This document shows positions 25,545 through 28,582 of a DNA stretch of 49,686 bases, one piece after another. The position numbers and the translations under genes were made by a program. The DNA is taken from positions 1-49,686 of the forward strand of contig JALGPX010000082.1 of assembly GCA_023515795.1 (NCBI GenBank), given 5' to 3'. A model generated the notes under the pieces. That model was not told the DNA's origin, searched no databases, and was given only the letters and a program-made list of their open reading frames with translations. Each line of letters begins with the position of its first letter. Position 1 is the first letter of the stretch. The DNA comes from Amoeboaphelidium occidentale (taxonomy: Eukaryota).

Positions 25545-25635
25545 ATGATTCTTCTCTGATGGACTTTGTGTGACCAAATCTTGTTTGCTGTGGAGGTTGA
25601 TCAGACGTCTTGAAGTTCTTCTTGACAAACTGAAC

Positions 25636-27314
25636 ATGTTTCAACTGATCTTGGCAATCTGCAACTTCATTTGTGGAATAAAATGCTTAACGTCAGAAGA
25701 AACCTTACCTGGCTCGATTACATTAAGAGGGACAATCAGAGATTTCAGCTTGTTTCATCTTGACTTTGAAGCAAATGTTGATGCAAAACGAGAACAGAAA
25801 GGCTTATTAAGTGCTAATCTGACCAATTCTCCTGATGATAGACCTTCTTTTATACCTCCAAACTTGAGGACCGATGATTCTTTGACCATCTTTTTGGATG
25901 TCAACTCTGATCAGGCTAATTACACAAGATATGCGCTTTCGAATTATGGCCAGTTTTACCATAACGAATACTTTCAGAATATTCCTGGAGTAAATGTCGC
26001 TATTCCAATTAACTTGGAACTGAAACTCATTGATGCTGCGAGATCTCTGTATCAATATGATTCTGGTTTGACTGGGTTCTTTCCCATTGATGAATATGGG
26101 TATCAACGAGAAAATCTTGCATCCGACACTCCACAGAGGCAAGGTGGAAATAATTATTGGTTTACTACCGAGTTCCGTGTCCGATTTTATTACAAAGGCG
26201 GAGAACAATTCGCATTCTCCGGAGATGATGATTTGTGGGTGTTTGTCAATGGAGCACTGGTTTCATCTTGTGATTTAGGAGGTCTTCATGCTCAGAGGTA
26301 AACTTGAAAGTATTTATATTGATATTTTAAGAAATTGCACGGTTGATATGGATTCTTTAGGGTTAACGCAATTCAGCTTGAATGAAATGTCGATTTTCCA
26401 TGCTGAGAGGCATTGGCTTGGAAGCAACTTCAAATTAACGACATCAATTATACCGGAGAATATTCCACCTATTTCAACAAGCTCTGTTGTATCAACTCCT
26501 GAAAATATTCCCGTTTCATTCAACCTTAAAGGTTTTGATCCTGATGAAACAGGAACTCTATTTGCAATGATCACACGTGCACCTTCTAATGGCACATTGT
26601 CTGTTAGCCTAAATACCTGGTTTCCCGTTTCTGAACAAGTTACGTTTTATCCCGATTTATACTTCTATGGAACAAATAATCTGGACTTCATTTTGAGCGA
26701 TGGAAAGGACAACTCAACTTCATCAACAGTCTTTATAGAAGTCTCATTTGTAGATCAGCCCCCAATAACTCAAAATGAGACATTTACGATTGCCATGGGT
26801 GAATCGGTCACAATACAACTGGTTTCCTTCGATCCTGATACACCTAAAGAAAATTTGACGTTTTATCTGGCAAGTAGCCCTGATTATGGTTACTGCTCAA
26901 TTACAGAATACGGCATGTTTACGTATGACTCTGTAAATAGTGGTATCGAGGTGATATTGTGGCAAATTACTGACGACGCAGGAAATTTCGCGACGGGTAA
27001 TGTGACGATTGAAATTTCATCTCCGATAACACAAGAGGGCGGTGTGCTAAAACCTGGAGAAGTTGCTGGCATTGTTGTCGGTTCAATGAGTTTAATAGGG
27101 CTAGTTGGTGTGGCATTAGTATTTTTTCTGTATAATTGGTTCATGGCTGCAAAATTTGAAGCGACGGTAACAGTTTCATTATGATCTAACAGTTTAGTGG
27201 CAAGAAGAGTTTTACCAAACGCAAGCTACTGTCAACCCGCTATACAAGCCGAAATACCAAGAAAAATACAATCCTCTGTACAAAGACAATGTTTTCGAGA
27301 ACAACGCAGTTTAA
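25636..27314 (+). CDS. Type I membrane protein: signal peptide, PA14/fibro-slime domain, two Ig/cadherin-like repeats, GxxxG TM helix, dual-NPxY tail
   Basis: GTIRDF...HLDFE, FFPIDE, NYWFTTE, FAFSGDDDLWVFVNG..DLGGLH, IFHAERH (PA14/fibro-slime). TPEN...DPDE and DQPP...DPD repeats. TM AGIVVGSMSLIGLVGVALVFFL. Introns 26298-26331 and 27167-27197; last exon WQEEFYQTQATVNPLYKPKYQEKYNPLYKDNVFENNAV*. Confidence 0.85.
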
Positions 27315-27337: not shown

Positions 27338-28582
27338 CTATTTGGGAACATACCGATCAACGAAGCGAGATCCCTTCCGACCGTAACTGGTTGATCTGTG
27401 ATCGCTCCTATGCGATCTAGGAGACCTCGATCTACTTCTTTCATATCTTGGACCATCGTAATTTCGTCTTTCGTGAGGAGAATAGCTGTCTCTGTTATGA
27501 TAATCTCTCCGATAAACTGGTCTACCTCTATGATCTCTGTAAGGCCGTTCACCGTAGTTGTCTCGATAAGGAGACCTATTGCCTCGATACCTGTCGTCTC
27601 GATTGTAACTGTCATCTCGATGATAGTATGGCCGTCTGTCATCGTCTTCGTATTCTCGGCGATAGCTTCCTCCTTCCCTGGAGCTATTTCTTTTAGGCGG
27701 CGAATGAATGTCTGAAGCTTTTCTAAATGATGAATTATGCTTATAGCGGCTATTAGAGAGCACGAGTGATCGAAATTCTTCGTAAAGTGCCTTTGATGCA
27801 GGGTTGATTTCCAGACCTTTTTCCAGATGCACAACTGCCTTCTCATAATCCTTTTTATCATGAGCACTAAAAATTGAGCGCGATTTAACCTCATCACATA
27901 GAAATACATTTTAGCAAGTTCCAAGAGACAATTAACGTTGGTTGGGTCGATATCTAACGCATGCTCAAAAGCTTTCACAGCTTTGTCAATAGATTTACGC
28001 TCCAATAGACCCTTTCCGGTATTATAGCTTGCGAAAGTCAGTAGATTAAAATACTATCAGATACCTCGTAATGGCCCAGTCCGCGTTCTGCATATTCCGC
28101 AGTTGTAAATAAGTCTGAGTCTCTGGCACAGCCGGTCGTACAAGAGGATTCTTCATCAAACTAGACCTCATCTGAATATGACAGGCTTCTACGCACAGCC
28201 GTAAAGCTTCCGGATTCTGAATATCGGGATGTTGGCTGGAATAATCCTCTCCAGAATAGTGCCTGTGCCTATCAGCAGAAGCGTAAGGTGCAACGTCGTA
28301 AAACTTCTGCAAGATCATATCGCTCGAGTCTGTACGTGCAGCTTCACTGGGTTCTACTCATTAAAAGGGTTCAGCATATTAATAACCTTTTTCCAAGCCT
28401 GAAGGTACAAAACCTTTCACCAGTGTACATATTCGATCGATGGTTGTGGTTATTCCATTCGTTTCACCATGAGGTAGTTCCCTGCTTAAGAATTTCTGTA
28501 TTAGAGGTTCCAGTAGAGCAGAGTTATTATGATGCACTTTGCTTTTGCTTATAGGACTGGGTTCTACAGGATTTTCAGACAT
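27338..28582 (-). CDS. TTC14-like TPR protein with RS/RD-rich C-terminus
   Basis: QLRNMQNADWA...KAVKAFEHALDIDPTNVNCL...AVVHLEKGLEINP TPR repeats; tail RSRSRSPRS; about four exons. Confidence 0.75.

What the first reader, a model, noticed from the sequence alone, without database searches (positions are those of the whole stretch)
25636..27314. Hidden integrin-beta-like adhesion receptor: PA14/fibro-slime + Ig/cadherin-like ectodomain, GxxxG TM and double-NPxY tail
Seen in sequence: removing a 31-nt intron (27167-27197, GTAACA...CTAAC...TAG) adds an exon that the ORF track misses. The cytoplasmic tail then reads YNWFMAAKFEATWQEEFYQTQATVNPLYKPKYQEKYNPLYKD after a GIVVG (GxxxG) TM helix. Established: integrin beta tails have the layout AKFE...NPxY-(8 residues)-NPxY, and those motifs bind talin and kindlin PTB/FERM domains. 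Dictyostelium Sib adhesins also combine GxxxG with two NPxY motifs. Fungi are regarded as lacking integrins. PA14/fibro-slime domains occur in Dictyostelium PsiA-type and Fibrobacter proteins, and many PA14 domains bind carbohydrate. Inference: this is a non-integrin, lectin-like receptor coupled to an integrin-type adhesome, possibly used in host attachment or phagocytosis by an early-diverging fungus.
Basis: partly seen in the sequence, partly recalled or inferred. Interest (0 to 1): 0.88.

Follow-up and report, generated by a model that had tools for sequence, protein, structure and literature searches.

The report
Candidate fungal stand-in for integrin
A spliced gene conserved across algal-parasitic aphelids and swimming-spore fungi encodes a surface protein with a predicted sugar-binding head and an integrin-beta-like inner tail, so it is likely the missing anchor that would let these integrin-less fungi grip surfaces through talin.

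Summary
Observation confirmed. Transcript-type contigs of a related strain skip the 31-nt intron (3 runs, one study) and a second, 34-nt intron. The 537-aa protein has a signal-like start, a PA14/fibro-slime head, two Ig/cadherin-like repeats, a GxxxG helix and two NPLY motifs 8 residues apart.

It belongs to a conserved, apparently undescribed family in aphelids, Blastocladiomycota, Gonapodya and Sanchytrium. 11 of 18 relatives found through the ectodomain carry the double motif. Eight database ORFs stop at the same unspliced intron. The helix-plus-tail profile's top 7 of 14 PDB hits are integrin beta chains.

It is not an integrin: it has no vWA head, no HDRxE clasp and no Trp(-5), and it scores below the PF08725 cut-off.

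Talin binding is inferred. Fungal talins keep the NPxY pocket, and co-folding gave weak support only. I could not show talin in this genome or in any genome with a named receptor; only a paper implies it for Allomyces. Saprotrophs keep the gene, so general spore adhesion fits better than phagocytosis.

The scan has noted other NPxY-tailed receptors elsewhere, but not this family.

The parts
25636..26297 (+). Exon 1: signal-like N-terminus and most of the PA14/fibro-slime head
   Evidence: First in-frame ATG after the stop at 25546-25548; TIGR02148 E 1.2e-13, 51.3 bits, above the cut-off of 45; covered by transcript-type contigs from about 25639
25636..25692 (+). Predicted signal peptide (aa 1 to about 19)
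   Evidence: Hydropathy 1.8 over aa 1-19; relatives also have hydrophobic starts. No signal-peptide predictor was run
26221..26232 (+). GDDD motif (aa 196-199), likely the D-cis-D calcium/sugar site of PA14 lectins
   Evidence: G, D, D invariant in 117 of 117 rows of A7; lies at the turn between two strands in the model. Equivalence to D-cis-D is inferred
26298..26331 (+). Intron 1, 34 nt, GT..AG (not listed in the finding)
   Evidence: Skipped in X2, X3, X6 and X5
26332..27166 (+). Exon 2: end of the head, two Ig/cadherin-like repeats, transmembrane helix, start of the tail
   Evidence: Big_9 E 1.5e-17 and Cadherin_4 E 4.1e-16, two stretches each
26450..27013 (+). Two Big_9/bacterial-cadherin-like beta-sandwich repeats (about aa 261-448), the stalk
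   Evidence: Pfam; ortholog model at pLDDT about 90 here; Foldseek hits to cadherin and Ig arrays; KIAA0319L PKD domains E 3.8e-9
27056..27130 (+). Transmembrane helix (aa 463-487) with tandem GxxxG
   Evidence: Hydropathy up to 2.5; GxxxG in 21 of 26 helices long enough to score in A5
27167..27197 (+). Intron 2, 31 nt, phase 0, just before the conserved Trp; position conserved across the family
   Evidence: Skipped in X2, X3 and X4; 8 of 9 truncated database ORFs inspected run F-x-x-x-V and then diverge or stop at this column
27198..27314 (+). Exon 3 (38 aa plus stop): rest of the membrane-proximal helix and both NPLY motifs
   Evidence: Translation; best Pfam hit PF08725 at E 0.028, 14.5 bits, below the cut-off of 23.4
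27234..27245 (+). Membrane-proximal NPLY (aa 512-515), predicted talin F3 site
   Evidence: N and P in 29 of 29 rows of A5, Y or F in 29 of 29
27270..27281 (+). Membrane-distal NPLY (aa 524-527), reader unknown
   Evidence: N, P, L in 29 of 29 rows, Y in 28 of 29, Glu three residues before it in 28 of 29

Best explanation
This is a spliced single-pass surface receptor, conserved in aphelids and zoosporic fungi, whose PA14-fold head is predicted to bind sugar with calcium and whose double-NPxY tail likely recruits talin, so that it would link a glycan surface to the actin cortex in place of the integrin these fungi lack. Shown: the gene model, domains, family and tail conservation. Inferred: (1) the signal sequence and 8 N-glycosylation sequons put head and stalk outside; (2) the invariant Asp-Asp pair binds calcium and a polysaccharide such as an algal wall or plant debris; (3) the two Ig/cadherin-like repeats hold the head off the membrane; (4) GxxxG may cluster the helices; (5) a helix continuing from the membrane and the first NPxY dock on talin F3, and the talin rod passes force to actin, as with Dictyostelium SibA and TalA. 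The likely stage is the wall-less zoospore or amoeboid cell as it crawls, settles and attaches before encysting.
For: Splicing. Family: 11 of 18 relatives found through the ectodomain end in two NPx[YF] motifs with a spacer of 8 (9 in one); the other 7 are models that stop before a tail; 0 of 124 other fibro-slime hits have the double motif. The helix-plus-tail profile ranks integrin beta chains as the top 7 of 14 PDB hits, beta-1 at E 0.0014. Among 1.84 billion representatives it gives 42 hits; three of the non-family ones carry PF08725 above the cut-off, including Capsaspora integrin beta at E 3.4e-4. The head model (pLDDT 91) matches PA14 sugar-binding domains best: Z 10.3, rmsd 2.9 over 123 residues, and Z 9.9, rmsd 3.0 over 138. 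Full-length FERM talins are named from 10 chytridiomycete species, Piromyces and Fonticula. All 14 fungal rows keep the pocket residues equivalent to vertebrate R358, W359, A360 and I396, and 13 of 14 keep Y377 (the role of these residues is recalled). Co-folding of the aphelid tail with Spizellomyces talin F2-F3 gave weak support: score 0.45, best of 3 controls 0.20, runs agreeing in at least 1% of contacts, partner pLDDT at least 48. That mark was reached by 51 of 78 solved complexes and 2 of 108 mismatches, but at 0.60 or under by only 5 of the 78 and by all 4 mismatches that passed; like complexes are solved, so it may be from memory. Papers: basal fungi have the scaffold proteins but no integrin, and an unidentified functional homologue is proposed (PMC5042518); talin is found in the chytrids examined except Rhizoclosmatium, a set that includes Allomyces macrogynus (bioRxiv 2020.06.12.142943), which has this receptor (P0032, P0153); SibA with two NPXY motifs carries TalA force (PMC12686525).
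Against: Talin was not shown in this genome. No named aphelid, blastoclad, Gonapodya or Sanchytrium talin was among the 120 listed of 1901 hits, which animals crowded. No named chytridiomycete or neocallimastigomycete receptor was among the 120 listed of 391 hits. So in my own calls the named receptor genomes and the named talin genomes do not overlap. The Trp five residues before the first NPxY, present in the three protist integrin-type tails checked, is Thr, Ser or Ala in the three family tails printed beside them and Ala or Ser in 24 of 29 rows. The Leu equivalent to talin L325 is kept in only 2 of 14 fungal rows. The integrin hits are driven largely by the motifs themselves, so they do not prove a shared partner. 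In Orpinomyces the scaffold genes were not induced by an attachment substrate (PMC5042518). Both Sanchytrium models lack helix and tail.
Confidence: 0.6

Rival explanations
1. It is a cycling lectin or uptake receptor: the NPxY motifs are sorting signals read by a PTB or FERM trafficking adaptor (SNX17-type, clathrin adaptors, or a MyTH-FERM myosin), not by talin.
For: NPXY is a general PTB recognition sequence (PMC9197732). The distal motif, which sorting adaptors read in animal integrins (recalled), is the more invariant one. The integrin Trp(-5) is missing. Some chytrids keep the MyTH-FERM myosin Myo22.
Against: The tail is neither FxNPxY nor the fungal NPFxD signal (signals recalled; the consensus is NP[LM][YF]). 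The paired layout with an 8-residue spacer and a long membrane-proximal helix matches integrin beta. Myo22 is absent from Allomyces macrogynus, which has the receptor. Presence of SNX17 or PTB adaptors in these fungi was not tested.
Confidence: 0.2
2. It is a surface or wall sensor that detects polysaccharide and triggers encystment or germination through signalling; the tail is a docking or phosphorylation site and bears little force.
For: The top structural match of the head is a PA14 biomass-sensing domain of a clostridial anti-sigma factor (6qe7, Z 10.3, tied with 6m8m). The gene is kept in parasites and saprotrophs alike. Scaffold genes rise at sporogenesis and germination in Orpinomyces.
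Against: The tail is short, with no catalytic domain, and its nearest matches are adhesion receptors. Sensing and talin coupling are not exclusive.
Confidence: 0.13
3. It is specifically a host-recognition or phagocytosis receptor of a parasitic aphelid.
For: The window's protein groups with the Amoeboaphelidium protococcarum ortholog (support 93/77, not starred). Aphelid cysts attach to algal walls (PMC6299283). Fibro-slime proteins are tied to cellulose adhesion in Fibrobacter (PMC4668043).
Against: Orthologs with intact tails occur in Allomyces, Blastocladiella emersonii and Gonapodya sp. JEL0774, which do not phagocytose (recalled). The gene is low-copy and conserved, unlike a fast-evolving host-range factor (15 of 22 listed strain differences are synonymous).
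Confidence: 0.07

Closest known systems
Integrin beta subunit, transmembrane helix and tail (Pfam PF08725; human beta-1, -2, -3, -7; Capsaspora integrin beta P0191)
   Same: Single pass, membrane-proximal helix, two NPx[YF] motifs 8 apart. The family profile finds these first in the PDB. The Capsaspora spacer scores against the family spacer above 99.9% of random 8-mers (biased, since it was found with that profile).
   Different: No vWA/MIDAS head, PSI or EGF stalk; no HDRxE clasp; no Trp(-5); below the PF08725 cut-off; no alpha partner known.
Dictyostelium SibA-E (similar to integrin beta)
   Same: Non-integrin adhesion receptor with two NPXY motifs and GXXXG that couples to talin (PMC12686525; bioRxiv 2020.04.29.069435; PMC9197732).
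   Different: Sib has a vWA domain and was seen only in dictyostelids. Here the ectodomain is PA14/fibro-slime plus Big_9, in a 537-aa fungal protein. No Sib was identified among my hits.
Acanthamoeba mannose-binding protein and Entamoeba lectin
   Same: Lectin ectodomain with an integrin-like tail, proposed to use talin (PMC12686525 Discussion).
   Different: Amoebozoan; that passage mentions one NPXY motif for the mannose-binding protein; no sequence link was found or tested here.
PA14 lectins (MpPA14, MhPA14, yeast Epa/Flo/Cea1) and fibro-slime proteins (TIGR02148)
   Same: Same fold (Z 7-10), Asp-Asp pair, and TIGR02148 above the cut-off.
   Different: Yeast adhesins are wall-anchored (GPI) with no cytoplasmic tail. 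None of the 124 other fibro-slime hits has a double NPxY. The head has long insertions (aligned 123-148 of 237 residues).

Membership tests
Integrin beta | vWA head with metal sites and cysteine-rich EGF stalk | tested here: not met
   Pfam gives PA14, Big_9 and cadherin-like only; 6 cysteines in all; criteria from bioRxiv 2020.04.29.069435
Integrin beta | Tail reaches the PF08725 gathering score (23.4 bits) | tested here: not met
   Window exon 14.5 bits; 6 of 11 orthologs match, best E 0.005, first member 15.8 bits; P0165 22.3 bits
Integrin beta | Two NPx[YF] motifs about 8 residues apart | tested here: met
Integrin beta | HDRxE-type alpha-subunit clasp and Trp five residues before the first NPxY | tested here: not met
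   Alignment to beta-1; column counts
Integrin beta | Heterodimer with an alpha subunit | not testable with these tools
   No genome held; papers report no integrin in basal fungi
Sib proteins | vWA-containing ectodomain | tested here: not met
   model of the ortholog
Sib proteins | GxxxG helix and two NPXY motifs | tested here: met
   GxxxG in 21 of 26 helices; both motifs in 29 of 29 rows (18 of these rows were selected by the tail profile)
Talin-coupled non-integrin adhesion receptors (works-like class) | Tail binds talin F3 | tested here: inconclusive
   Weak co-folding support, 0.45 against best control 0.20, with another species' talin
Talin-coupled non-integrin adhesion receptors (works-like class) | FERM-bearing talin in the same genome | not testable with these tools
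   one search lists none from receptor-bearing taxa among 120 of 1901; implied for Allomyces macrogynus (figure and supplement not seen)
Fibro-slime domain (TIGR02148) | Score above the curated cut-off | tested here: met
   51.3 bits from exon 1 alone, cut-off 45
PA14 calcium-dependent lectins | PA14 beta-sandwich fold | tested here: met
   Model of relative P0161's head, pLDDT 91; Z 10.3 and 9.9 to PA14 sugar-binding domains; Pfam PA14 itself is below the cut-off
PA14 calcium-dependent lectins | D-cis-D calcium site and sugar binding | tested here: inconclusive
   Invariant Asp-Asp at a strand turn; cis bond, residue equivalence and ligand not checked; definition from PMC6650083

The most novel reading that the evidence does not exclude
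Early fungi did not lose the business end of integrin beta. They kept its transmembrane helix and double-NPxY tail and swapped the head for a bacterial-type PA14/fibro-slime lectin on an Ig stalk. This family would then be the unidentified integrin functional homologue that anchors talin in aphelids and zoosporic fungi, present in their common ancestor and lost with talin in later fungi.
Probability: 0.3. Interest if true: 0.92.

Novelty: new variant of a known kind. Interest (0 to 1): 0.78.

Why it matters
Zoosporic fungi keep talin, vinculin and paxillin but no integrin. [quoted passage not shown] This family is the first concrete candidate I could find, and it occurs in culturable saprotrophs such as Allomyces and Blastocladiella, so the question becomes directly testable. 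It also bears on how integrin-type tails evolved by ectodomain swapping, and on how aphelids and Paraphysoderma attach to algae. The tail is often hidden from ORF callers by a conserved intron, which may explain why it was missed.

Tried and rejected
- Whole-genome search for talin, kindlin, vinculin and paxillin: no genome is held.
- Talin through metagenomes: 82 loci whose translations read as talin F3, none assignable to this organism (codon-usage comparison uninformative). The top 120 of 1901 were crowded by animals, so the lack of aphelid or blastoclad talins there is no evidence of absence.
- Runs X1 (a single 192-nt contig), X5 and X6 do not cover intron 2; this shows nothing either way.
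- My first Pfam and NCBIfam scans of exon 3 used the wrong frame and are void. Pfam was redone; NCBIfam was not.
- The window's exon 3 alone finds nothing in the PDB at E up to 10; the integrin signal needs the family profile.
- The full-length ortholog model had a poor head and tail (pLDDT under 50 in parts); the head was refolded from relative P0161. The wide VIA search was busy twice, so only the re-ranking of Foldseek hits was run.
- Atlas search with P0027 gave only scores of 0.75.
- Names were sought for 20 of the 37 new tail-profile hits; only 2 carry one, so chytridiomycete members cannot be excluded. P0175 is a spurious repeat hit.
- Rejected: artefact or pseudo-exon (splicing, conservation); true integrin (membership table); NPFxD-type fungal endocytosis signal (motif differs).
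- Literature: ten searches listed no paper on a fungal NPxY adhesion receptor or a fungal fibro-slime receptor; most were seen as listings only. The aphelid genome paper and the original SibA paper are not held, and preprint supplements are closed; either could mention this family.

Full report
Setting. The window is a compact eukaryotic genome, GC about 40%, with 31-41 nt introns and fungal-type housekeeping genes such as a pentafunctional AROM-like ORF (that name is my reading of the translation). No whole genome is held. The spliced protein's best hit among 20 relatives is Amoeboaphelidium protococcarum (42% over 519 aa). In a tree of the head it groups with that protein and five unnamed environmental ones at 93/77 support, not starred. 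An aphelid source is therefore likely but inferred.

Gene model. Exons are 25636-26297, 26332-27166 and 27198-27314, giving 537 aa. Intron 2 (27167-27197) is skipped in contigs of X2 and X3 and X4. These are 3 of 6 runs laid, all of one study and of a strain about 98% identical; the other three do not cover the site. Intron 1 (26298-26331) is skipped in X2, X3, X5 and X6, from two studies. Library kind is not on record, but X2 and X3 skip 7 canonical introns in 4 kb, so I infer they come from RNA. Of 22 listed strain differences in the coding sequence, 15 are synonymous. Independent support comes from truncated database ORFs: 8 of 9 inspected read F-x-x-x and then Val exactly where the family has its conserved Trp, as a GT donor in phase 0 would give. 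One of them, P0187, is nearly identical to this gene. The intron is thus old and often hides the tail.

Anatomy. The start is hydrophobic. The head matches TIGR02148 above its cut-off, in register across intron 1, and PA14 weakly. Two Big_9/Cadherin_4 repeats follow. There are 8 sequons outside and none in the tail. The helix is aa 463-487 with tandem GxxxG, and the tail has NPLY at 512 and 524. A model of the aphelid ortholog shows one helix from 460 to 507, so the helix continues past the membrane; the motif region is low-confidence. A model of the head of relative P0161 reached pLDDT 91. Its best structural matches are PA14 sugar-binding domains: 6qe7 at Z 10.3, rmsd 2.9, 123 aligned, and 6m8m at Z 9.9, rmsd 3.0, 138 aligned; yeast Epa/Flo heads score about 7 (a re-ranking of Foldseek hits). 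G-D-D is invariant in 117 of 117 aligned heads. PA14 lectins bind sugar through calcium held by a D-cis-D pair (PMC6650083, passages); that this pair is the equivalent is inferred. Fibro-slime proteins are linked to cellulose adhesion in Fibrobacter (PMC4668043, passages).

Family. A search with exon 1 alone, which has no tail, returned four close relatives; three end in a double NPx[YF] and the fourth stops at the intron. A profile search (120 of 391 listed) and cluster look-ups name members in Amoeboaphelidium protococcarum, Coelomomyces, Catenaria, two Blastocladiella, Sorochytrium, three Allomyces, Paraphysoderma (two genes), two Gonapodya and Sanchytrium (two genes). Of 18 such relatives, 11 have both motifs (spacer 8 in ten, 9 in one); 7 are fragments or models that stop before a tail, including both Sanchytrium proteins. 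None of 124 other fibro-slime hits has the double motif. The eukaryotic heads form one group apart from these at 99/99 (P0192 falls outside on a long branch). No chytridiomycete, neocallimastigomycete, Rozella, Fonticula or Dikarya name appeared among the listed hits.

The tail against integrin beta. A profile of helix plus tail from 11 orthologs returns 14 PDB sequences at E up to 10, and the top 7 are integrin beta chains (beta-1, E 0.0014). Six of 11 members match PF08725, none near its cut-off; the window's exon gives 14.5 bits against 23.4. Against 1.84 billion representatives the profile gives 42 hits. Most are family members or fragments. The outsiders are three integrin-beta-type tails including Capsaspora's (E 3.4e-4), a few unnamed proteins with EGF or cysteine-rich stalks, and one spurious repeat. 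In a 29-row alignment N-P is invariant in both motifs, with a conserved Tyr, Phe, Trp and Glu before them and a Glu three residues before the second (18 rows were selected by the tail profile, so this count is partly circular). The likeness is largely the motifs plus the helix, so it cannot separate common descent from convergence.

Is there a talin? Not testable in this genome. A motif scan gave 82 talin-like loci. A profile from some of them retrieved full-length FERM talins named from 10 chytridiomycete species, Piromyces, Fonticula, Capsaspora and many animals (120 of 1901 listed). None is from a receptor-bearing taxon, which may only reflect crowding. Fungal F3 keeps the residues that I recall as the NPxY pocket (14 of 14 rows for R358, W359, A360, I396; 13 of 14 for Y377), but L325 in only 2 of 14 (the query was seeded by a motif containing W359 and A360). 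A preprint reports talin in the five chytrids examined except Rhizoclosmatium, which implies Allomyces macrogynus (bioRxiv 2020.06.12.142943, passages; figure and supplement not seen). That is the only overlap I have. Co-folding the aphelid tail with Spizellomyces talin F2-F3 gave weak support: 0.45 against a best control of 0.20, contacts agreeing in at least 1%, partner pLDDT at least 48. The mark was reached by 51 of 78 solved pairs and 2 of 108 mismatches, but at 0.60 or under by only 5 of the 78 and by all 4 mismatches that passed. Like complexes are solved and peptides are untested. It moves my odds little.

Mechanism. Most likely (0.6) the head grips a glycan surface, the stalk spaces it, and the first NPxY recruits talin to pass force to actin, as SibA does with TalA (PMC12686525, passages and Discussion; PMC9197732, passages). 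NPXY/F-dependent talin recruitment also holds for Capsaspora tails (PMC6450878, passages). Retention in saprotrophs points to wall-less spore crawling and settlement, not phagocytosis; in an aphelid the same receptor could serve attachment to the algal wall (PMC6299283, passages). Rivals are a sorting receptor (0.2), a polysaccharide sensor (0.13) and a host-specific phagocytic receptor (0.07). Against adhesion, Orpinomyces scaffold genes were not induced by an attachment substrate (PMC5042518, passages and section 12), though I found no receptor of this family named from that lineage.

Novelty. Non-integrin receptors with integrin-like tails are a known kind in Amoebozoa (Sib, the Acanthamoeba mannose-binding protein, the Entamoeba lectin, and PMC10846614, passages). 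I found none described for fungi or aphelids in ten searches, and PMC5042518 names the missing anchor as an open question. A nucleariid genome preprint has no mention of talin or integrin. The library lacks most subscription papers, including the aphelid genome paper. Earlier notes of this scan hold no look-alike of this family but report other NPxY-tailed receptors, including doubled motifs in prokaryotes, a caution that the motif alone does not name the partner. Verdict: real feature, new variant of a known kind, interest 0.78.

Noticed in passing
window:21072-22690 (-): Multi-exon PH-domain gene that by recall resembles animal syntrophins. Pfam gives only PH at E 0.0019, the PDB nothing, and the Atlas generic PH clusters under 0.9, so the resemblance is unsupported so far.
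   Followed up: partly
window:27322-28500 (-): TPR gene with an Arg/Asp/Ser-rich end converges on the receptor. One 2781-nt contig in X2 and X3 joins both spliced messages, suggesting overlapping 3' ends. The other strains carry an 18-nt insertion at 27440.
   Followed up: no
window:24769-25545 (+): Small multi-intron gene ending about 90 bases before the receptor's ATG; by recall it reads as a HAD-type phosphatase. Two of its introns are skipped.
   Followed up: no
P0192, P0179: More distant PA14 plus Ig plus helix protein with a double-NPLY tail of a different helix pattern, on a long branch outside the fungal group. It may mark the family outside fungi, or a second fusion.
   Followed up: partly
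P0163, P0035, P0169: Members with longer stalks (P0163, 1258 aa, has about nine profile matches) but the same tail, so stalk length varies.
   Followed up: no
P0173, P0174, P0181, P0185, P0188: Unnamed proteins with EGF or cysteine-rich stalks and related NPLY tails, some with a degenerate second motif: further non-integrin receptors of this kind.
   Followed up: no
L008:228-7826 (+); P0199-P0201: Full-length anaerobic-fungus-type talin with a complete FERM head (88% to Piromyces), whereas the Orpinomyces talin in PMC5042518 lists no FERM domain, its middle domain starting at residue 100; that model is probably truncated.
   Followed up: partly
P0038, P0039 (Sanchytrium tribonematis): Both models end without helix or tail; either mis-annotated or secreted forms.
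   Followed up: no
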